Below are positions 1 to 54,277 of a stretch of 64,000 bases of DNA, one piece after another. The notes under the pieces are model-generated. The model had not been told where the DNA came from, did no database searches, and saw nothing but the letters and a program-made list of their open reading frames with translations. Each line of letters begins with the position of its first letter. Within the stretch, counting starts at the first letter, position 1. The translations under genes and the position numbers were made by a program. Source of the DNA: an uncultured Gammaproteobacteria bacterium (GTDB lineage: Bacteria > Patescibacteriota > Microgenomatia > Levybacterales > UBA12049); NCBI GenBank assembly GCA_964521295.1, contig CAZFRF010000001.1, forward strand, positions 270,146 through 334,145, given 5' to 3'.

Positions 1-3000
1 ATTGCCATTACTGATCATGGCAATATGTACGGTGTTATTAATTTTTATAAAACCTGCGTCGCAGAAGGCATAAAACCAATCATAGGAGCAGAAATTTACA
101 TAGCCAAGAGATCTATGCACGACAAAGAAGCAGGAATTGATGGGGATTCAAATCATTTAGTACTCCTTGCCAAAAATCTAAATGGTTATAAAAATCTTAT
201 GAAAATTATTTCAGCCGCAGGACTTGAAGGCTACTATTACAAGCCTAGGACAGATTTAGATCTACTTGCAAAATATAGTAAAGATTTAATTTGTTTAAGT
301 GCCTGTGTCAATGGTTTTGTTTCTGACCCTCTTCTCCATGGAAAAGAAAAGTTGGCCGAAGAAAGAGCTCAAAAATTAAATGAGATTTTTGGTCAAGGTA
401 ATTTTTACTTAGAGCTACAAAAACATATCCATGTTCCAGATCAAGAAATTTTAAATCCAAAGCTTGCAGCTTTAGGCAAAAAATTAGGAATTCCTTTAGT
501 TGCAACAAACGATAACCATTACACCAAACCTGATGATGCTGAGGCTCAAGAAGCTTTACTATGTATCCAAACTCAATCAACACTAGATACTCCTGGTAGG
601 AAATTATCTATGATCGACTCCCCTGATTTCTATATCAAAAGTCCAGAAGAAATGACTGGACTTTTTGTCGATTATCCAGAAGCAATTGAGAATACAGTCA
701 AAATTGCTGACATGTGTAACGTGGAAATAACTTTAGGCAAATGGATCATGCCTATCTTTGAAGTTCCAGGCGGAAAAACTGCAGCTGACTATATGAAAGA
801 AAAAGTAGATGAGGGACTTATTAAAAGATATGGTGAAATAACAGCAGAAATTGCTGAAAGACGTGATTACGAATTATCAATTATTTTGGGTAAAGGGTAT
901 GAAACCTATATTCTAATCGTTGCTGACTTTGTTAACTGGGCAAAATCTAACGGTATTACAGTTGGTCCAGGAAGAGGATCGAATGCTGGCTCAATTGTTT
1001 CTTACGCCCTATCAATCTCAGATATTGATCCTTTATTTTTCAAATTACCATTTGAAAGGTTCTTAAATCCTATGCGTCCTTCCCCACCTGATATAGATTT
1101 AGATTTTGCAGACAACAGAAGAGACGAAGTTATTGAATACGTAAGGAGTAAGTATGGACGCGACAAGGTTGCTCAAATTATTACTTTTGGAACGATGGAG
1201 GCAAGAGGCTCTGTTAGAGATATTGGAAGAGTTCTGGGTTACCCATACGCTGTCCCAGATAGAATTTCAAAAATGATACCACCAGGCTGGCAGGGCCATG
1301 CTATGACGATTGATAAAGCTCTAGAACAAAGTCCTGGGCTTAAAATCGCCTACACGATGGAAGACGAAACAAAAAGAATGCTTGATCTTGCTAGGAAAGT
1401 AGAAGGAGTTGCAAGACATGCATCTGTTCATGCAGCAGGTGTTGTTATTGCTGATAAGGATATTACTGAATATACACCGCTTCAAAGAGAAACAAATGGT
1501 GAAAAAATTATTTCTCAATACGATATGTATAGCATTGGTGAAGATGGAGTAGGACTTTTAAAAATCGATTTTTTAGGGTTAAGAAACTTAACTATTATTC
1601 AAGAAGCTTTAAAATTTATTCAAGCCAATCAAAACATTGAAGTTGATTTTTCAAAAATCTCTTTTGAAGATAAAAAAACCTATGAACTACTCGCATCAGG
1701 TGAAACAACCGGAATTTTCCAGCTTGAATCGGCTGGAATGCGAAGATATATTAAAGAATTAAAACCTACCACTATTTTTGACCTTCAAGCAATGGTCGCC
1801 TTATACAGACCTGGCCCTATGGCTAATATCCCAGAATTTATTAAACGAAAAAATAATCCCAAATTAATCACTTATCCTGACCCAAGACTTGAAGACATTC
1901 TCAAAGAATCATATGGAATTATTACCTTCCAAGACGACATGCTCCTAACTGCTATCAAAGTTGCCGGATACTCCTGGTTAACAGCAGATAAGCTTAGAAA
2001 AGCTGTGGGTAAAAAAATTCCTGCTGAAATGAGAAAACAACATGAGAGCTTTGTTGCAGGCTGTGTTGAAAATGGAATGAAAAAAGATAAAGCAGAAAAC
2101 CTTTGGACTCTATTTGAACCATTCGCAGGCTATGGTTTTGGCAAAGCTCATGCTGCTTGCTATGCAACTATTGCCTTTAGAACAGCCTATCTTAAAGCAC
2201 ACTACCCAGTAGAATTTATGACAGCCCTGCTTACTGCTGAATCAAGAGGCACAACTGGACCGGTTAAAAATGAAAAAATTTCTCAAGCAGTTGCTGAGTG
2301 TAAAAGATTAAAAATTGAAGTATTACCACCTGATATCAATAAATCTGAGGATGAATTCTCTATCGAAGATAATACTAAAATTCGTTTCGGTCTATCAGCG
2401 GTTAAAAATGTAGGCGAGGCTGCAATTTCAAACATAATTGAAAATCGATCTAAAGGCCTATTTAAAAGTTTTGAAGATTTCTGCAATCGAGTAGATCTTT
2501 CTACTATTAATAAAAAGACTGTTGAAAGCATAATTAAGGCTGGTGGAATGGATTCATTCGGCAAAAGAGCGAAGCTTTTGATTGATTATCCAGAAATTGT
2601 CGAAAAAGCCAATAAAAAGAAAAAGAAAGACACAGGTGGACAGGCAAGTCTTTTTGGTGATGATGACATGCCAGCTATAAAAACAGTAGCTAATTTAGAT
2701 ATTGATGATTTTTCTGAAAATGAAAAATTAAGTTTTGAAAAAGAATTCCTAGGTTTTTATTTAACAGCTCATCCGCAAATGGGTAACTTGCTTAAAATTA
2801 AAGAAAAGATTACGCACGAAATTCAAGCCTTAGAGGAAGAAAAACAAAACGCTAATGTAATTATAGGAGGCATTATTGAAACAGTCAGAAAAATCTTTAC
2901 CAAAAAATCTAATAAAGAAATGGCATTCATAACCATTGCTGATGAAAATGGAACTCTTATGGAATGCGTAGTTTTTCCCAAAATATTCGATTTATATAAA

Positions 3001-3114
3001 AATACTCTAGTTAAGGAAAATGTAATCCTTATTTCAGGAAAAGTTGACTCAAAAAATGATAAACCAGTAATAATTGTCGAGAAAATATCTAATTTTACTA
3101 GTTTAGCTTCTTGA
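1..3114 (+). CDS. dnaE: DNA polymerase III alpha subunit (DnaE), 5'-truncated at the window edge
   Basis: The reading frame is open from nt 1 (IAITDHGNMYG...), so the listed M at 25 is internal. PHP-domain motifs are present (ITDHGNM, NHLVLLAKN). The polymerase core (GYGFGKAHAACYA), fingers and OB-fold tail are recognisable over 1029 aa. Confidence 0.9.
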   Translation: MAITDHGNMYGVINFYKTCVAEGIKPIIGAEIYIAKRSMHDKEAGIDGDSNHLVLLAKNLNGYKNLMKIISAAGLEGYYYKPRTDLDLLAKYSKDLICLSACVNGFVSDPLLHGKEKLAEERAQKLNEIFGQGNFYLELQKHIHVPDQEILNPKLAALGKKLGIPLVATNDNHYTKPDDAEAQEALLCIQTQSTLDTPGRKLSMIDSPDFYIKSPEEMTGLFVDYPEAIENTVKIADMCNVEITLGKWIMPIFEVPGGKTAADYMKEKVDEGLIKRYGEITAEIAERRDYELSIILGKGYETYILIVADFVNWAKSNGITVGPGRGSNAGSIVSYALSISDIDPLFFKLPFERFLNPMRPSPPDIDLDFADNRRDEVIEYVRSKYGRDKVAQIITFGTMEARGSVRDIGRVLGYPYAVPDRISKMIPPGWQGHAMTIDKALEQSPGLKIAYTMEDETKRMLDLARKVEGVARHASVHAAGVVIADKDITEYTPLQRETNGEKIISQYDMYSIGEDGVGLLKIDFLGLRNLTIIQEALKFIQANQNIEVDFSKISFEDKKTYELLASGETTGIFQLESAGMRRYIKELKPTTIFDLQAMVALYRPGPMANIPEFIKRKNNPKLITYPDPRLEDILKESYGIITFQDDMLLTAIKVAGYSWLTADKLRKAVGKKIPAEMRKQHESFVAGCVENGMKKDKAENLWTLFEPFAGYGFGKAHAACYATIAFRTAYLKAHYPVEFMTALLTAESRGTTGPVKNEKISQAVAECKRLKIEVLPPDINKSEDEFSIEDNTKIRFGLSAVKNVGEAAISNIIENRSKGLFKSFEDFCNRVDLSTINKKTVESIIKAGGMDSFGKRAKLLIDYPEIVEKANKKKKKDTGGQASLFGDDDMPAIKTVANLDIDDFSENEKLSFEKEFLGFYLTAHPQMGNLLKIKEKITHEIQALEEEKQNANVIIGGIIETVRKIFTKKSNKEMAFITIADENGTLMECVVFPKIFDLYKNTLVKENVILISGKVDSKNDKPVIIVEKISNFTSLAS

Positions 3115-3145
3115 CGCAAGGCTATTTTATTCGTAAAATATAAGC

Positions 3146-3877
3146 ATGGTTTCATTCGCAGCAGAACCTATTATTCGTTTGGGCAATTTTGCTATAACTA
3201 ATACATTTTTGGATATGTTATTAGTTGACGCTATTATCATTGGCATTATTGCCTTAACTAGAAAAAAACTAGCTCTTATTCCTTCTAAGCTACAAATGTT
3301 TGTTGAAATATTAATCAGCGAATTCTATAGCATTACTGAGTCAGTTGCGGGAAAAAACAGCAATAAGATTTTTCCTTATTTTATGACTTTTTTCTTATTT
3401 ATCTTAATTGCCAACTGGACAGGTCTTATTCCAGGACTTACAGCAATTGGGCTTAAGCATGAAGAAGAAATAATTCCTTTCCTAAGACCATTAACTAGTG
3501 ATTTTAATGGAACCTTGGGTCTTGCTATAGTTTCAGCTGTTGCCACCCATGTCATGGCAATTCAAACTGTTGGTATAAGAGATTATTTGAGTAGATATTT
3601 ATCGTTTAATCCTTTATACTTATTCATTGGTACTCTGGAAATCATTTCTGAGCTCACTAAAATAGTTTCTCTATCCTTTAGACTGTTCGGAAATGTTTAC
3701 GCAGGAGAAGTAGTTATGCATACAGTTTCATCAATTTTTGCTTTTATATTCCCCCTTCCTTTCCTTTCTTTGGAATTTATTGTTGGACTTGTCCAAGCAT
3801 TAGTATTTTCTATGTTGACGATGGCATTTATGGCGATTTTAACAACGCCCCATCATGCTGAGGAGGTGAGTCATTAA
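3146..3877 (+). CDS. atpB: F0F1 ATP synthase subunit a
   Basis: Polytopic protein with the conserved a-subunit motif LSFRLFGNVYAGEVV containing the essential Arg. It is the first gene of the atp operon. Confidence 0.85.
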   Translation: MVSFAAEPIIRLGNFAITNTFLDMLLVDAIIIGIIALTRKKLALIPSKLQMFVEILISEFYSITESVAGKNSNKIFPYFMTFFLFILIANWTGLIPGLTAIGLKHEEEIIPFLRPLTSDFNGTLGLAIVSAVATHVMAIQTVGIRDYLSRYLSFNPLYLFIGTLEIISELTKIVSLSFRLFGNVYAGEVVMHTVSSIFAFIFPLPFLSLEFIVGLVQALVFSMLTMAFMAILTTPHHAEEVSH

Positions 3878-49384: not shown

Positions 49385-50191
49385 TCAAGATGCAGCCCTA
49401 CTTCCAAGTACGGACTTAGATAATGCTTGATATTGCTCCTCTGTTAAAGGATCAGGAAGGACATCAACCTCCCGCGCTATTCTTCCATTCCTAATTGTTC
49501 CGCCCCGCTTAGCATCAAAGCGAAAAATTCCATGCTCTAGCTGAAACCGTCTTATATATTCCTCATACAATCTATACAATGTAGGGGCTTTGGTCTCTTC
49601 ACCTTCTTCTCTTTTACAAGCAATTAATTCTGCTGTAAGCCCATTAACTGCATGTCTAGCTTGATCGGGGGTTAATTTTTCTCTTGAAAAAGATAAATAA
49701 AATTCCCAACTTCTTGGATTTATTACCCCCACTATTTTTGTTTCACCTGTTAAAAGATCCTGCATGTCGCCAGCCCTTAAAGGCTCTGCTAGTGGATGCA
49801 CGCTGCCAAACCACTTATTAATCGTGGATCCATAACCTCTTTCTCTATATGCATGTAATACCACCAATCGACCCTTTGCCCCTTCCGCCAACTCCTTATT
49901 CACTGGATTAGTAGTTATTGGACCGGGAATAATTTCACCAGCTTCTGAAACATCAATTGCCTGTTCCATATCTCGACTATTTCTACCCTGATTATCATGC
50001 CAAAGTTCAGATGCCAGATTGCGACAAATTCCCCTTAAAGGTCCTAATCTTATTTCTGTAAATCTAGCAAGAGCCCCTGGGCTAGATTCGCCAAAAAAAA
50101 TACCAGCTAATGCTGGTATTGAAATAGCGCTGCCGGCTTTTTGCCGTTCTAAAGGCGGAATAAATATTTCTCTTTCTCGTAAAATTGCCAC
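49385..50191 (-). CDS. Hypothetical protein, compositionally atypical (GC-elevated)
   Basis: 268-aa uninterrupted ORF with visibly higher GC than its neighbours. Arg/Glu/Gly-rich. No recognisable domain. Confidence 0.4.
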   Translation of the reverse strand: MAILREREIFIPPLERQKAGSAISIPALAGIFFGESSPGALARFTEIRLGPLRGICRNLASELWHDNQGRNSRDMEQAIDVSEAGEIIPGPITTNPVNKELAEGAKGRLVVLHAYRERGYGSTINKWFGSVHPLAEPLRAGDMQDLLTGETKIVGVINPRSWEFYLSFSREKLTPDQARHAVNGLTAELIACKREEGEETKAPTLYRLYEEYIRRFQLEHGIFRFDAKRGGTIRNGRIAREVDVLPDPLTEEQYQALSKSVLGSRAAS

Positions 50192-50894: not shown

Positions 50895-51359
50895 TCAATT
50901 ATTATTAACTGAATTTTTCGCATATTGTTTTAACCTAAAGTGTAAAATATCGTCCTCAGACCTAACTTCTCCTAATAAGATTTTATTCATTATCTCATCA
51001 TCACCATCAAGCGATAATCCGGCCCTTTTTTCCGGAGCACTATAAACCTCTATTAAAAAATCAATAAATTCATTTTTAGATAAACTATTAACATATCTTT
51101 CATACTCCACATCATCTGGTTTTACAAACGGAATATGATCTTTTTTAGTCCTATATATCTTGTATGAAATATTCTTTTCTCTATATACTGATCCGTGACC
51201 TTCTATCTCATGTTTTTTTTCATGGCTATTTAATTCTGATTCATCAATTTCATCAAAATCATTTGTAATTAAGCTGGAATACTCTGTCATAAGTTCCTGA
51301 GGAGACATCTGGCTGTTTTTAAATTTTATATATAATCTTGCTACCCTAATATCTACCAT
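50895..51359 (-). CDS. Hypothetical protein, co-operonic partner of the TIR-like gene
   Basis: 154-aa acidic ORF lying 42 bp downstream of 51402-52319 on the same strand. No recognisable domain. Confidence 0.45.
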   Translation of the reverse strand: MVDIRVARLYIKFKNSQMSPQELMTEYSSLITNDFDEIDESELNSHEKKHEIEGHGSVYREKNISYKIYRTKKDHIPFVKPDDVEYERYVNSLSKNEFIDFLIEVYSAPEKRAGLSLDGDDEIMNKILLGEVRSEDDILHFRLKQYAKNSVNNN

Positions 51360-51401
51360 AATAAAATATCTAAAGTATTAAAATTTAAGTATATTTTAAA
51401 T

Positions 51402-52319
51402 TTAGCTTAATGCGGCTTCAAAATTAAACTTAAGTCCAGCATCCTTTAATTCCTTAGCAATATTCAATTTCCATTCACCGCTTTCATTAAAAGGTATGTA
51501 TAAAATACCCAATAAATCTGTTGGTAGTTCTGTATTTTCTTTGTATAATACACATACATTCTTTCTCTTAAGTTTTCCGACAAAAAATCCAAGTTCCATA
51601 ATTACATTTTGTCTAGCTCTTGGTTTGGCATTATCTGGCTTTTCATTTTTTTCAAATCCTATGTCATCCGGCGTTATCAATACGATTGCAAATCCAACAC
51701 CTTCAGAATAATGCTCTAATTTTTCAATTAGTGTTCGACCTCCATTAGTTTGCTCGTGTAAAATAATTGGGATTAGGCCAATGCTTCTAATATATCCTGC
51801 TACAGCTTCCTTTATTACTTCATCATGCCCATGAACGACAAATACCTCTTTATTTTTACCCTCTCCTGGATTCTCAATCGGTGATTGAGACTTGCTAATA
51901 TTATCTATAGATTCTGGAATCAAATCTAATCGCCTAATAATTGACTGTAAAGCATTTAGCTTAGCTCTCATGTCGTTTTTAAAGTTATAAATTGAATCTG
52001 AAACATCGCTAATCATAACCATAGACCCATATGAATTCCTAAATTCTTTTTTATATGCTTCATTGTCAAAAATCCTAGTTAGGTATTCTGAAATAAACTC
52101 AACCCATTGTTCCTTTTTATCCTCTGCAATTGAAACATCCTCCTCATTATTAAATTGGGAATTTTGAATTGTTTTGCCTTCTTCTAAAAGTTCTTCAAGT
52201 TTTCCTTTTGCATCCAACTTGGGAATAATTAATCTTGGCGGTGGTAATTGTGGAGATATTACTGTTCTTGCCATATATTTATTATACCACTTTGTTTTAT
52301 CAAACATCATGTCGCACAA
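51402..52319 (-). CDS. Two-domain protein: unknown N-terminal domain plus C-terminal TIR-like nucleotide-binding domain (COG4271 / CAP12-PCTIR-type)
   Basis: The C-terminal about 150 aa (about 51402-51850) read KEVFVVHGHDEVIKEAVAGYIRSIGLIPIILHEQTNGGRTLIEKLEHYSEGVGFAIVLITPDDIGF. This matches the hallmark VF(I/V)VHGHD...ILHEQ...G.T.IEK.E....FA.VLLTPDD.G of TIR-like domains. The listed start is a TTG; the ATG pair at 52305-52310 or the ATG at 52274 are more likely true starts. Confidence 0.6.
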   Translation of the reverse strand: MCDMMFDKTKWYNKYMARTVISPQLPPPRLIIPKLDAKGKLEELLEEGKTIQNSQFNNEEDVSIAEDKKEQWVEFISEYLTRIFDNEAYKKEFRNSYGSMVMISDVSDSIYNFKNDMRAKLNALQSIIRRLDLIPESIDNISKSQSPIENPGEGKNKEVFVVHGHDEVIKEAVAGYIRSIGLIPIILHEQTNGGRTLIEKLEHYSEGVGFAIVLITPDDIGFEKNEKPDNAKPRARQNVIMELGFFVGKLKRKNVCVLYKENTELPTDLLGILYIPFNESGEWKLNIAKELKDAGLKFNFEAALS

Positions 52320-52339
52320 TCCATATATTACGACATGGT

Positions 52340-52381
52340 TTTGAAGCTAAAATTATATTAAGAAAAATCACTTGAAGCTAG
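52340..52381 (-). promoter_or_regulatory. Candidate promoter/operator upstream of the TIR-like gene
   Basis: On the minus strand there is a TATAAT at 52352-52357 with a TTCAAG -35-like hexamer at 52371-52376 (13-nt spacer, suboptimal). A 9-bp direct repeat TTGAAGCTA sits at 52341-52349 and 52372-52380, 31 bp apart. A second extended -10 (TGGTATAAT, 52282-52290) lies just upstream of the ATG at 52274. Confidence 0.3.
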
Positions 52382-52427
52382 TGGAGAAATAAGTTTATAT
52401 TTTCAATCTTTACTATCTTTCAATTTA

Positions 52428-53096
52428 TTAACGTGGCATTACTCCATTTCCAGGCATAAAGGCTCTTTTTAAGAGCCCAAATCTAGAACCCGTAGTTTGC
52501 TTTTCCGTAACAGCTTCCCCAAAAGCAAATAAATTCATATCACTTATCTTACGAAGTTTATCCACTACGCGATCATTTTCTTGCGTTCTTAGATGGGTTA
52601 CGCCAGAAATTAAATTGGGCAATCTTACAAGTCCTGGGTATATATCTCTTGCAGATGTCATCTCTTCTGACCGAGGATACCAAATAAGTACCCTAGTAAC
52701 ATCTTCTCCTTTGCCATAACTTTCTAAAACACCCCAAAAATCATGTGGTTTTAAGTATTCAAATTTCCTTACCCCACCATCAGTTATAGGAAATAATGCT
52801 TCAGAATTAAAGCCAATTATTGTTCCATCCTGATAGGCAGATCCAACAAACTCTTCACCTTCTCCAAATCTTTTCAAAGGAGTAGCTCCGGCAATTTGTA
52901 GAAAATCTTTTAAGGCCTGTCTTGCTCTCGAGTCAGCACCCCATTCACCACGAACTGATATTCGAGATGGGGAATGTGGCTGTACAGGGCAATCATCGTC
53001 AAAACCATGATCATCCCAATGCTCAGGACTTCTAAAATCTCCTTTTCCAAATGATCGATATTCATTCATGTGGGGTATTATACCAAAAATAGTCAT
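52428..53096 (-). CDS. Hypothetical protein, compositionally atypical (GC-elevated)
   Basis: 222-aa uninterrupted ORF with elevated GC. Gly/Asp/Arg-rich. No recognisable domain. Lies 108 bp upstream of the TIR-like gene on the same strand. Confidence 0.4.
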   Translation of the reverse strand: MTIFGIIPHMNEYRSFGKGDFRSPEHWDDHGFDDDCPVQPHSPSRISVRGEWGADSRARQALKDFLQIAGATPLKRFGEGEEFVGSAYQDGTIIGFNSEALFPITDGGVRKFEYLKPHDFWGVLESYGKGEDVTRVLIWYPRSEEMTSARDIYPGLVRLPNLISGVTHLRTQENDRVVDKLRKISDMNLFAFGEAVTEKQTTGSRFGLLKRAFMPGNGVMPR

Positions 53097-53128: not shown

Positions 53129-53956
53129 GTGAGTATTAATCAAAATAATTTTGACAAAAAATATTATTACGAAATCTGCTTTGGCTCAGAAGACTTTAAG
53201 AAAAGCAAAGGATTAAAGGTTGCTCCTCGTGTAAAGAAAATGATTGACGATCTAAACCTTTCTAAATCCATGGATGTTTTAGAGATTGGCTGCGGAAGAG
53301 GAGATACGGCTCTATACATAGCAAAAAAAGTTAACTCGGTTACTGCAATAGATTACTCAAAAGACGGAATAAAAATTGCAAACAGTATCAAAAAGAATTT
53401 TCCTAAAAAAATTCAAGATAAAACTAAATTTTTTGTAATGGATGCAACAAAATTATCTTTTAAAAATAATTCTTTTGACTATGTAATCTTAATTGACACA
53501 ATTGAACACTTAAATACTAAAGAACAAATTAAAATGTTAAATGAAATACAAAGAGTCTTAAGACCTCAAGGAAAACTATATGTAAGAACATGTACAAATA
53601 AGATCTTAAATGATTTTACATATAAATATTATTCATATCCTTTAAATATATTTCTCACCTGGATTGATAAAATGATAAAAGGCGTTGATTACGAATCTTT
53701 ACCTAAAAATCCCAGAAATAAAGAGCAGAAAAAGCAACACATAAATGAATGTACATATTTTAGTCTTAAAGAGTTGTTTGCTAAAACAAATTTCAAAGGA
53801 AATATAAAGTCAGAAGTTGGATTATTAAAAGAAGGAATCTCCAGAAGAACTAAATTATATAATTTTGCAATTGCACTATTTCCAATTTCTAAATATTTTC
53901 CACTAAATATCTTTTTTACGTCTTCATTTAATTGCTATCTTCAAAAAGAAAAATAA
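53129..53956 (+). CDS. Class I SAM-dependent methyltransferase (small-molecule/UbiE-like type)
   Basis: Motif I VLEIGCGRGDTALYIA, motif post-I AIDYS, motif II/III FDYVILIDTIEHL. No N6/N4/C5 DNA-MTase motifs. Confidence 0.8.
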   Translation: MSINQNNFDKKYYYEICFGSEDFKKSKGLKVAPRVKKMIDDLNLSKSMDVLEIGCGRGDTALYIAKKVNSVTAIDYSKDGIKIANSIKKNFPKKIQDKTKFFVMDATKLSFKNNSFDYVILIDTIEHLNTKEQIKMLNEIQRVLRPQGKLYVRTCTNKILNDFTYKYYSYPLNIFLTWIDKMIKGVDYESLPKNPRNKEQKKQHINECTYFSLKELFAKTNFKGNIKSEVGLLKEGISRRTKLYNFAIALFPISKYFPLNIFFTSSFNCYLQKEK

Positions 53957-54022: not shown

Positions 54023-54277
54023 TCAAATTTCTTTTGAAAAAGTGATAACTGCGGCTTCTCTAGTCCAGAAAAGTAGTAATCTACGTTTCTCTAATACCAT
54101 AAAATCCATATTCCACCCTTCTTCTCCATACTTATTCATTACTTCTTCCATTTTCTTAACGGGCATTTTACTACTTGCGACAAGAAGCGTACCTATCGCG
54201 CCTTCTTTAACAACCTCAACTTTATATTGCTTTTTTGCCATTAATAAAATAATCACACAACCAATAATGAATGTCAA
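54023..54277 (-). CDS. Small DUF4177-like protein
   Basis: QYKVEVV...GTLL....MPVKKMEEVMNKYGEEGWNMDFMV fits the DUF4177 pattern (YKV..V....G......LE..LN..G..GWEL). The start may be the internal Met (MAKKQYKV). Confidence 0.4.
   Translation of the reverse strand: MTFIIGCVIILLMAKKQYKVEVVKEGAIGTLLVASSKMPVKKMEEVMNKYGEEGWNMDFMVLEKRRLLLFWTREAAVITFSKEI

What the first reader, a model, noticed from the sequence alone, without database searches (positions are those of the whole stretch)
50895..52427. TIR-like (CAP12/PCTIR-type) effector-domain gene with an unknown N-terminal domain and a 154-aa partner: candidate abortive-infection / antiphage module
The C-terminal half of ORF 51402-52319 carries the hallmark of the TIR-like nucleotide-binding domain (KEVFVVHGHDE...ILHEQTNGGRTLIEKLE...FAIVLITPDDIGF). 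By established knowledge this family (COG4271; Pfam CAP12/PCTIR TIR) acts as NAD+-degrading or signal-generating effectors in CBASS, Pycsar and Thoeris-like defence systems. Here it sits behind a about 155-aa N-terminal region with no recognisable fold, which could be a sensor. It is followed 42 bp downstream by a co-directional acidic 154-aa ORF with no homology I can recognise. No cyclase, ThsA-like SLOG/Macro or STING partner is present, so the architecture does not match a described system. Defence systems are rarely reported in CPR-like reduced genomes, which raises the interest. An apparent promoter with a 9-bp direct repeat lies immediately upstream.
Basis: partly seen in the sequence, partly recalled or inferred. 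Interest (0 to 1): 0.8.

Follow-up and report, generated by a model that had tools for sequence, protein, structure and literature searches.

The report
Standalone TIR defence-candidate gene plus rare HExxH neighbour
The larger gene is an ordinary member of a very widespread, already catalogued but untested family of single-gene TIR (NAD-cleaving) phage-defence candidates, and the small gene behind it is not its usual partner but belongs to a rare, undescribed family of metal-enzyme-like proteins that tends to follow different defence-type genes in tiny-genome bacteria.

Summary

The 154-aa gene lies next to none of 89 other family loci. It is not an orphan, though. Exhaustive HMMER finds about 10 distant relatives whose only invariant residues, apart from the start Met, are H-E-H and D. 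Its fold is confidently predicted (pLDDT 94) with no close PDB match. In 8 of 9 contexts a relative directly follows a co-directional gene. These include PDC-S35 here, a different candidate (PDC-S54) in a related genome, and small membrane proteins. Functional coupling is possible but unproven. The 9-bp repeat is not significant.

The parts
51402..52274 (-). TIR-effector gene, probable true extent (290 aa plus stop, start at M16 'MARTVISP'). Member of PADLOC PDC-S35 and phrog_16442.
   Evidence: PDC-S35 E=4.9e-73 over residues 38-302 of the 305-aa form against profile positions 4-261 of 264. phrog_16442 E=2.5e-65. More than 4,700 homologues, 284-293 aa. M1 is nearly invariant in alignment A1.
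51900..52274 (-). Conserved N-terminal helical domain (residues 1-125 of the 290-aa form). Helices 19-37, 44-68, 73-79 and 91-118. Invariant L15, W57 and L65, plus an 'RLxLIPE' motif. Proposed sensor or oligomerisation-control domain (inferred).
   Evidence: Alignment A1. AF2 pLDDT above 90 across the domain. No Pfam domain. No similarity to the other upstream partners of the small-protein family.
51861..51899 (-). Variable, disordered linker (residues 126-138) between the helical domain and the TIR domain.
   Evidence: pLDDT below 50 for residues 126-138. The alignment is unconserved there.
51405..51848 (-). CAP12/PCTIR-type TIR domain (residues 143-290).
51594..51596 (-). Codon of the putative catalytic glutamate (E227 of the 290-aa form, E242 of the 305-aa ORF) in 'RQNVIMELG'.
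   Evidence: It aligns with 'RDNVVFEFG' of SfSTING, where R78, N80 and catalytic E84 are defined experimentally (PMC9402430). R221, N223 and E227 are invariant in 41 sequences.
52281..52289 (-). Extended -10 element TGGTATAAT, 6 nt upstream of the M16 ATG. Probable promoter of a leaderless or very short-leader transcript. It lies inside the mechanical 5' extension of the ORF.
   Evidence: Sequence. GTGnTATAAT, then 6 nt, then ATG is conserved in the 83%-identical relatives L005, L006 and L008. 12 of 43 ORFs in the window show the same arrangement against 3.2% background. Function is inferred, not shown.
52341..52380 (.). Probably not a functional element.
   Evidence: Shuffle P about 0.08. The distal copy and the TATAAT are absent from close relatives.
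51360..51401 (-). 42-nt spacer between the two genes. No terminator-like site; a weak promoter-like site (TTGAAG-17-TAAAAT, 51421 to 51393) overlaps the end of the TIR gene.
50895..51359 (-). 154-aa gene. Member of a rare, undescribed family of 142-159-aa proteins (about 145 aa) with invariant H, E, H and D (putative metal-dependent hydrolase or peptidase-like protein).
   Evidence: Exhaustive phmmer finds 10 relatives, E from 8e-16 to 2e-4. A profile built from the relatives alone scores 129.5 bits end to end on the window's copy. AF2 pLDDT 94.3, pTM 0.87. No hit in Pfam, PADLOC, NCBIfam, PHROG or PDB sequences.
51195..51224 (-). His/Glu cluster of the small protein, residues 46-55 'HEKKHEIEGH'. 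The family's HExxH aligns to H50-E51...H55, but here with one extra residue (HExxxH). A canonical HEKKH lies at 46-50.
   Evidence: The residues lie on predicted helix 45-61.
50997..50999 (-). Codon of invariant D121 ('GDD' here, 'GTD' or 'GSD' in most relatives), at the N-terminus of helix 119-128. Candidate third metal ligand (inferred).

Best explanation
The gene at 51402-52274 encodes a standalone member of the PDC-S35 / phrog_16442 family: a conserved N-terminal helical domain, a disordered linker, and a CAP12/PCTIR-type TIR domain with an intact active site. It most likely acts alone as an abortive-infection effector. By analogy with CAP12 TIRs, which cleave NAD+ only when their sensor domain drives them into filaments, the helical domain would hold the TIR inactive. 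An infection cue would then trigger oligomerisation, completing composite TIR active sites, and NAD+ would be depleted. Shown here: family membership, fold, invariant catalytic residues, a patchy and mobile distribution, and the absence of any conserved partner. Inferred: NADase activity, the trigger, oligomerisation and antiphage function. The 154-aa gene downstream is not a component of this family's system. It belongs to a separate rare family of about 145-aa HExxH...D proteins with a confidently predicted fold that has no close solved relative. It is probably a metal-dependent hydrolase. It occupies the same variable islet downstream of ftsA-ftsZ and may or may not act together with the TIR protein.

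For: Full-length family: PDC-S35 E=4.9e-73. phrog_16442 E=2.5e-65. 4,700 homologues at E<=1e-3. 585 confirmed stretches in GTDB species genomes from many phyla, including Saccharibacteria and Patescibacteria. 1,164 plasmid records and 5 phage records.

Standalone: the three closest relatives (83%, 60% and 55% identity) each have a different downstream gene. Across 80 distinct loci the most widespread neighbour cluster occurs in 4 loci. No PADLOC family hits more than 2 of 148 neighbours, and no Pfam family more than 4, the top one being phage integrase.

Defence or mobile context in relatives: NERD plus Type ISP RM. HNH, terminase, PIN and resolvase. Recombinase, GIY-YIG and NmeDI_C. A TerY-P-like trio plus DUF262 on a Rhizobium plasmid.

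Small gene not a partner: tblastn and HMM searches find nothing in 89 other loci.
Against: No member of PDC-S35 has been tested. The source paper and a later one call the PDC systems untested or unvalidated. NADase activity, oligomerisation and the trigger are inferred from distant CAP12 TIRs (20-24% identity in the domain). Many neighbours of family members are ordinary housekeeping genes, and I ran no matched background control for defence enrichment. The window's own locus has no integrase, tRNA or flanking repeats, and its GC content is typical of the window. The recurrent placement of the small-protein family just behind effector-like genes argues that calling it unrelated may be too dismissive.
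Confidence: 0.65

Rival explanations
1. This is a true two-gene module. The small HExxH protein would be a portable accessory that works with interchangeable abortive-infection effectors in small-genome (CPR-like) bacteria: TIR/PDC-S35 here, PDC-S54, small membrane proteins. It could be a processing or activating peptidase that cuts the effector (here in the disordered linker 126-138, freeing the TIR domain to oligomerise). It could instead be a sensor or regulator that responds to a phage product.
Confidence: 0.27
2. This is a toxin-antitoxin pair. The TIR protein would be a constitutively toxic NADase and the acidic 154-aa protein its antitoxin or immunity protein.
For: The small acidic ORF lies immediately downstream with no terminator between. 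Across the family loci, 29 have a small (200 aa or less) co-directional gene directly downstream of the TIR gene, including two lineage-specific families in Bacteroidota.
Against: Relatives of the small protein follow unrelated partners, which a binding antitoxin could not all neutralise. Its conserved residues look catalytic. The closest TIR relatives (83-55% identity) lack it and have no common substitute. Many family loci have a convergent or distant downstream gene.
Confidence: 0.05
3. The TIR-fold protein has no role in defence. It could be a nucleotide or nucleoside-processing enzyme of the same superfold, or a signalling adaptor.
Against: The best sequence and structure matches are Cap12 NADase TIRs, with the R, N and E active-site triad conserved. 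The family is spread patchily across phyla, plasmids and phages and lies next to RM, BREX, TerY-P, DUF262 and integrase genes. PADLOC's authors selected it because it is embedded in BREX, DISARM or Type I RM loci.
Confidence: 0.06

Closest known systems
PADLOC PDC-S35 (single-gene 'phage defence candidate'; Payne et al., bioRxiv 10.1101/2024.01.29.577857), equivalent to phrog_16442
   Same: Full-length match covering both the N-terminal helical domain and the TIR domain. Same length class (about 290 aa). Single-gene organisation.
   Different: Nothing architectural. This copy is in a roughly 0.94-Mb, 31%-GC, CPR-like genome and is followed by a rare HExxH gene. The family itself is only a prediction and has never been tested.
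Cap12 / TIR-STING and TIR-SAVED effectors of CBASS, and PycTIR of Pycsar (PF10137 TIR)
   Same: Same TIR subfamily, with the closest structures (7un8, 9lmq). Conserved R, N and catalytic E. The expected chemistry is oligomerisation-activated NAD+ hydrolysis.
   Different: There is no STING, SAVED or cNMP-binding sensor domain and no cyclase or CD-NTase gene. The TIR domain is C-terminal, behind a helical domain of unknown ligand. NCBIfam Cap12 equivalogs score 34-38 bits against a cutoff of 450.
CapP / ImmA / IrrE (PF06114) metallopeptidase regulators associated with diverse defence systems
   Same: For the 154-aa gene only: a small HExxH-motif protein found beside several unrelated defence-type genes.
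   Different: No PF06114 match, no GAF domain and no HTH (CapH-like) partner. It lies co-directionally downstream rather than divergently upstream. It is far smaller (about 145 aa), with a different predicted fold.
Protease-activated immune effectors (for example bacterial gasdermins cleaved by an adjacent protease). This is from my own knowledge and was not checked here.
   Same: As a concept only: a protease-like gene adjacent to a cell-killing effector that has an inhibitory domain joined by a flexible linker.
   Different: There is no sequence or fold relation, cleavage is entirely hypothetical here, and gene order and families differ.

Membership tests
Pfam PF10137 CAP12/PCTIR TIR domain | Profile match above the curated gathering score | tested here: met
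   132.9 bits against a cutoff of 24.7, E=7.1e-39, profile positions 2-118 of 119.
Pfam PF10137 CAP12/PCTIR TIR domain | TIR (flavodoxin-like) fold, closest to solved Cap12 TIR structures | tested here: met
Pfam PF10137 CAP12/PCTIR TIR domain | Catalytic glutamate on helix alpha-C, with the Arg and Asn that hold NAD+ (SfSTING R78, N80, E84) | tested here: met
   'RQNVIME' aligns with 'RDNVVFE'. Residue roles come from PMC9402430. R221, N223 and E227 are invariant in 41 homologues.
Pfam PF10137 CAP12/PCTIR TIR domain | NAD+ hydrolase activity on oligomerisation | not testable with these tools
   Needs biochemistry.
PADLOC PDC-S35 | Full-length match to the family HMM | tested here: met
   PDLC05005 E=4.9e-73, residues 38-302 against profile 4-261 of 264. 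Four further PDC-S35 models score E from 1e-67 to 1e-48.
PADLOC PDC-S35 | Single-gene system (no obligatory partner) | tested here: met
   No recurrent neighbour in 80 distinct loci. The closest relatives have different neighbours.
PADLOC PDC-S35 | Antiphage activity | not testable with these tools
   PDC systems are described as untested or unvalidated.
CBASS (Cap12 effector) | CD-NTase gene in the operon, and a cyclic-nucleotide sensor domain (STING or SAVED) on the effector | tested here: not met
   Neighbours carry no CD-NTase. The CBASS effector models match only the TIR region. The Cap12 equivalogs score 37.7 and 33.8 bits against a cutoff of 450.
Pycsar (PycTIR) | Pyrimidine cyclase gene, and a cNMP-binding domain on the effector | tested here: not met
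   The PycTIR model matches only residues 192-280, E=3.3e-9. No cyclase in the flanks.
Thoeris | A ThsB-type TIR (PF08937 or PF13676) plus a ThsA-like effector gene | tested here: not met
CapP / ImmA / IrrE metallopeptidase regulators (for the 154-aa gene) | PF06114 peptidase domain, C-terminal GAF domain, adjacent HTH repressor, divergent upstream placement | tested here: not met
   No Pfam hit for any of the 11 family members. No HTH neighbour in the window. The features are taken from 10.1101/2022.04.27.489752.
Zincin-type metallopeptidase (for the 154-aa gene) | HExxH on a helix plus a third acidic or His ligand | tested here: inconclusive
   All 10 relatives have a canonical HExxH at the aligned site, and D121 is invariant. 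The motif lies on predicted helix 45-61. The window's copy reads HEIEGH (one residue inserted), with HEKKH four residues earlier.
Zincin-type metallopeptidase (for the 154-aa gene) | Zincin fold | tested here: inconclusive

The most novel reading that the evidence does not exclude
The 154-aa gene would be the founding example of an undescribed, fast-evolving family of miniature HExxH...D enzymes. In CPR/Patescibacteria-like genomes these would act as a portable accessory (activating peptidase, sensor or regulator) for interchangeable abortive-infection effectors: a TIR NADase (PDC-S35), PDC-S54, and small membrane proteins. That would be a modular two-gene defence architecture specific to ultra-small bacteria.
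Probability: 0.25. Interest if true: 0.7.

Novelty: new member of a known kind. Interest (0 to 1): 0.4.

Why it matters
The TIR gene adds little on its own. It is one more copy of a very common, already catalogued candidate family. It does show that such single-gene TIR candidates reach reduced, CPR-like genomes, and the family's E. coli, plasmid and coliphage homologues make PDC-S35 easy to test.

The more useful output is the small gene. It belongs to a rare protein family with a catalytic-looking H-E-H-D signature and a confidently predicted fold that has no close solved relative. In the few contexts available, it trails different defence-type effectors. If that link is real, it would define a new accessory module of bacterial immunity in a poorly studied part of the tree, and it would give functional handles on two untested PADLOC candidates at once.

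Tried and rejected
1. Word-indexed homologue search for the 154-aa ORF returned only itself. That would have led to 'orphan'; exhaustive phmmer overturned it.
2. The search for related loci with alignments A2 and A3 failed because no stretch was conserved enough.
The HNP codons were therefore out of frame, and the 4 hits (L100-L103) are chance matches with no tblastn similarity. That scan was wasted. The corrected pattern found nothing in viral contigs.
4. The N-termini of three upstream partners looked similar by eye ('DAKGKLEELLEEG', 'EAKKKLVEELEGY', 'SAKKQVVEEVESY'). I rejected this: hhalign probability is below 1% and BLASTP E=0.06.
5. I suspected a PD-(D/E)xK nuclease motif in PDC-S54. 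Pfam and PDB sequence searches give no support, so I make no claim.
6. The CapP/ImmA identity for the small protein was rejected.
7. The 9-bp repeat promoter was rejected as non-significant and unconserved.
8. An integrated element was rejected: no tRNA, Rfam RNA or flanking repeats, and no GC anomaly over the two genes.
9. The organism could not be named, because cluster look-ups carry no organism names. 'CPR-like' rests on the 0.94-Mb contig, 31% GC and the source of relatives only.
10. The AFDB fold library was unavailable.
11. The small-protein family is absent from the phage and plasmid collections.

Full report
**Observation.** The window carries two co-directional minus-strand ORFs, 51402-52319 (305 aa, TTG start) and 50895-51359 (154 aa), separated by 42 nt. 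Homologues of the large protein are 284-293 aa and begin at the position of its M16, so the gene is most likely 51402-52274 (290 aa). The 9-bp repeat TTGAAGCTA exists at 52341 and 52372. A repeat of 9 bp or longer arises in 7.6% of shuffles of this 24%-GC spacer, and promoter-like sites in the region are not above expectation. In the 83%-identical relatives the distal repeat copy and the TATAAT between the copies are missing. What is conserved is an extended -10 (GTGnTATAAT) 6 nt before the M16 ATG.

**The N-terminal half and the architecture.** No Pfam domain covers the N-terminal half, but it is conserved (invariant L15, W57 and L65, plus an RLxLIPE motif). It folds confidently into a helical domain (helices 19-37, 44-68, 73-79 and 91-118) joined to the TIR domain by a disordered, variable linker at residues 126-138. 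The whole two-domain protein matches PADLOC PDC-S35 (E=4.9e-73, near full length) and phrog_16442 (E=2.5e-65).

The family is very large. There are 4,700 hits at E<=1e-3 and 585 confirmed stretches in GTDB species genomes from dozens of phyla, including Saccharibacteria and Patescibacteria MAGs. There are also 1,164 plasmid records and several phage records, including coliphages that annotate it as a TIR-like protein. PDC systems were predicted because they are embedded in BREX, DISARM and Type I RM loci, and they are explicitly untested. The architecture is therefore catalogued, though not characterised.

**Is there a partner?** The three closest relatives have different neighbours:
- 83% identity: DUF4352, NERD and a Type ISP RM enzyme.
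- 60% identity: an HTH, HNH, terminase, PIN and resolvase islet.
- 55% identity: a convergent gene, with a recombinase, GIY-YIG and NmeDI_C genes nearby.

Across 80 distinct loci, neighbour orientation, size and spacing vary freely, and the most widespread neighbour cluster occurs in 4 loci. Among 148 flanking ORFs, no PADLOC family hits more than 2 and no Pfam family more than 4 (phage integrase). RM, BREX, mad2 and PDC-S13 genes are mixed with housekeeping genes. A Rhizobium plasmid copy lies between a TerY-P-like trio and a DUF262 gene. Neither tblastn nor an HMM of the 154-aa family finds a relative near any other family locus. The TIR protein is a standalone gene with a patchy, mobile distribution, not core content.

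**The 154-aa gene.** Word-indexed search found only itself. Exhaustive phmmer against 1.84 billion representatives then found 10 relatives of 104-159 aa at 25-34% identity (E from 8e-16 to 2e-4). A profile built from those relatives alone aligns the window's copy end to end at 129.5 bits. Apart from the start Met, the only invariant residues are H50, E51, H55 and D121.

All relatives carry a canonical HExxH. The window's copy has a one-residue insertion (HEIEGH), with a canonical HEKKH four residues earlier. With only 11 sequences, AlphaFold still gives pLDDT 94.3 and pTM 0.87. The His/Glu cluster lies on helix 45-61 and D121 lies at the start of helix 119-128.

**Contexts of the small family.** Nine contexts were available.

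| Locus | Gene directly upstream of the small gene | Gap |
|---|---|---|
| window | TIR / PDC-S35 | 42 nt |
| L092 | 404-aa protein matching PDC-S54 full length (E=2e-74) | 4 nt |
| L095 | 110-aa protein with 1 predicted TM segment | overlap |
| L097 | 117-aa protein with 3 predicted TM segments | 1 nt |
| L096 | 390-aa unknown | 15 nt |
| L104 | truncated unknown | 14 nt |
| L105 | truncated, hydrophobic | 48 nt |
| L098 | truncated unknown | 7 nt |
| L099 | none co-directional; divergent Vsr endonuclease | - |

. L092 comes from a related genome: FtsZ is 65% identical, and the small gene again lies a few kb downstream of murG-ftsQ-ftsA-ftsZ. L095 also has a serine recombinase nearby. The upstream partners are unrelated to one another.

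This resembles a constant module with swapped effectors. The sample is small, however, several contigs are very short, and these compact genomes have short co-directional gaps by default. I give real functional coupling about one chance in four.

**Mechanism.** The most likely picture is a standalone abortive-infection effector. The helical domain restrains the TIR domain until an infection cue drives oligomerisation. That completes composite active sites, as in the SfSTING filament, and depletes NAD+. Family membership, fold, catalytic residues and distribution are shown here. Activity, trigger and phenotype are inferred. Rivals are the two-gene accessory-peptidase model (0.27), a toxin-antitoxin pair (0.05) and a non-defence enzyme (0.06).

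**Novelty and score.** The finding as submitted is a new member of a known, though untested, candidate family. The claim of an undescribed architecture does not hold. The residual interest lies in the small HExxH family and its association with two different PADLOC candidates in CPR-like genomes. Interest is 0.4.

**Limits.** I could not name the organism. I wasted the one metagenome scan on a mis-pasted pattern. I could not open the model coordinates, search AFDB, or run a matched background control for defence enrichment.

Noticed in passing
whole window; examples at 52281-52289 (-), upstream of 50700 (-), 40381 (-), 60361 (-): Only 2 of 43 ORFs of 120 aa or more have a GGAG, GAGG or AGGA Shine-Dalgarno in -18..-4. 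By contrast, 12 of 43 have a TAnAAT hexamer ending 4-12 nt before the start codon, against 3.2% at random positions. This suggests widespread leaderless or very short-leader mRNAs in this 31%-GC genome.
   Followed up: partly
L092:4782-6429 (groundwater metagenome contig; ftsA-ftsZ at 1380-3834): In a related genome (FtsZ 65% identical) a full-length PADLOC PDC-S54 candidate (404 aa, E=2e-74) is followed after 4 nt by a relative of the 154-aa gene. As in the window, this lies a few kb downstream of ftsZ. It may be a variable defence islet at a conserved chromosomal position.
   Followed up: partly
L095:4966-5298 and L097:3071-3424: The genes immediately upstream of two other members of the small HExxH family encode 110-aa and 117-aa proteins with 1 and 3 predicted transmembrane segments. 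They have no family assignment and could be membrane-disrupting effectors.
   Followed up: partly
window 52428-53096 (-) and 49385-50191 (-): Two ORFs near the pair (222 aa and 268 aa; the 268-aa one lies beyond the DUF1801 gene) have no Pfam, PADLOC, NCBIfam or PHROG family. The only hint is a faint putative-transposase hit for the 268-aa ORF (E=0.0013). Both sit in stretches of higher GC (about 0.40) than their surroundings (about 0.30-0.33).
   Followed up: no
window 52311-52319 (-) and L005, L006, L008 upstream regions: A 9-nt element, TTGTGCGAC, is conserved upstream of the TIR gene in the window and in the 83%-identical relatives. Its distance to the -10 element varies, so it is too far away to be a -35 box. 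It could be an operator or a relic.
   Followed up: no
L035:6822-7208, L043:6814-7206, L045:6825-7217; L033:6872-7111, L036:6895-7122, L079:6849-7079: In Bacteroidota, two unrelated lineage-specific small genes (about 130 aa and about 76 aa, three loci each) lie 1-12 nt downstream of, or overlapping by a few nt, the PDC-S35 gene. They have no HExxH and no relation to the 154-aa family. They may be lineage-specific accessory or immunity genes.
   Followed up: partly
L047 and L055 (Methanosarcina), residues 140-286 of the query: Archaeal (Methanosarcina) proteins share about 55% identity with the TIR half only, so that half occurs there without a detectably similar N-terminal domain.
   Followed up: no
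window 53129-53956 (+) and 54023-54277 (-): A class-I SAM methyltransferase on the opposite strand (236-297 bp windows down to 24% GC) and a DUF4177 gene separate the islet from ftsZ. The same arrangement is seen in two other samples of the same organism, L001 and L002.
   Followed up: no
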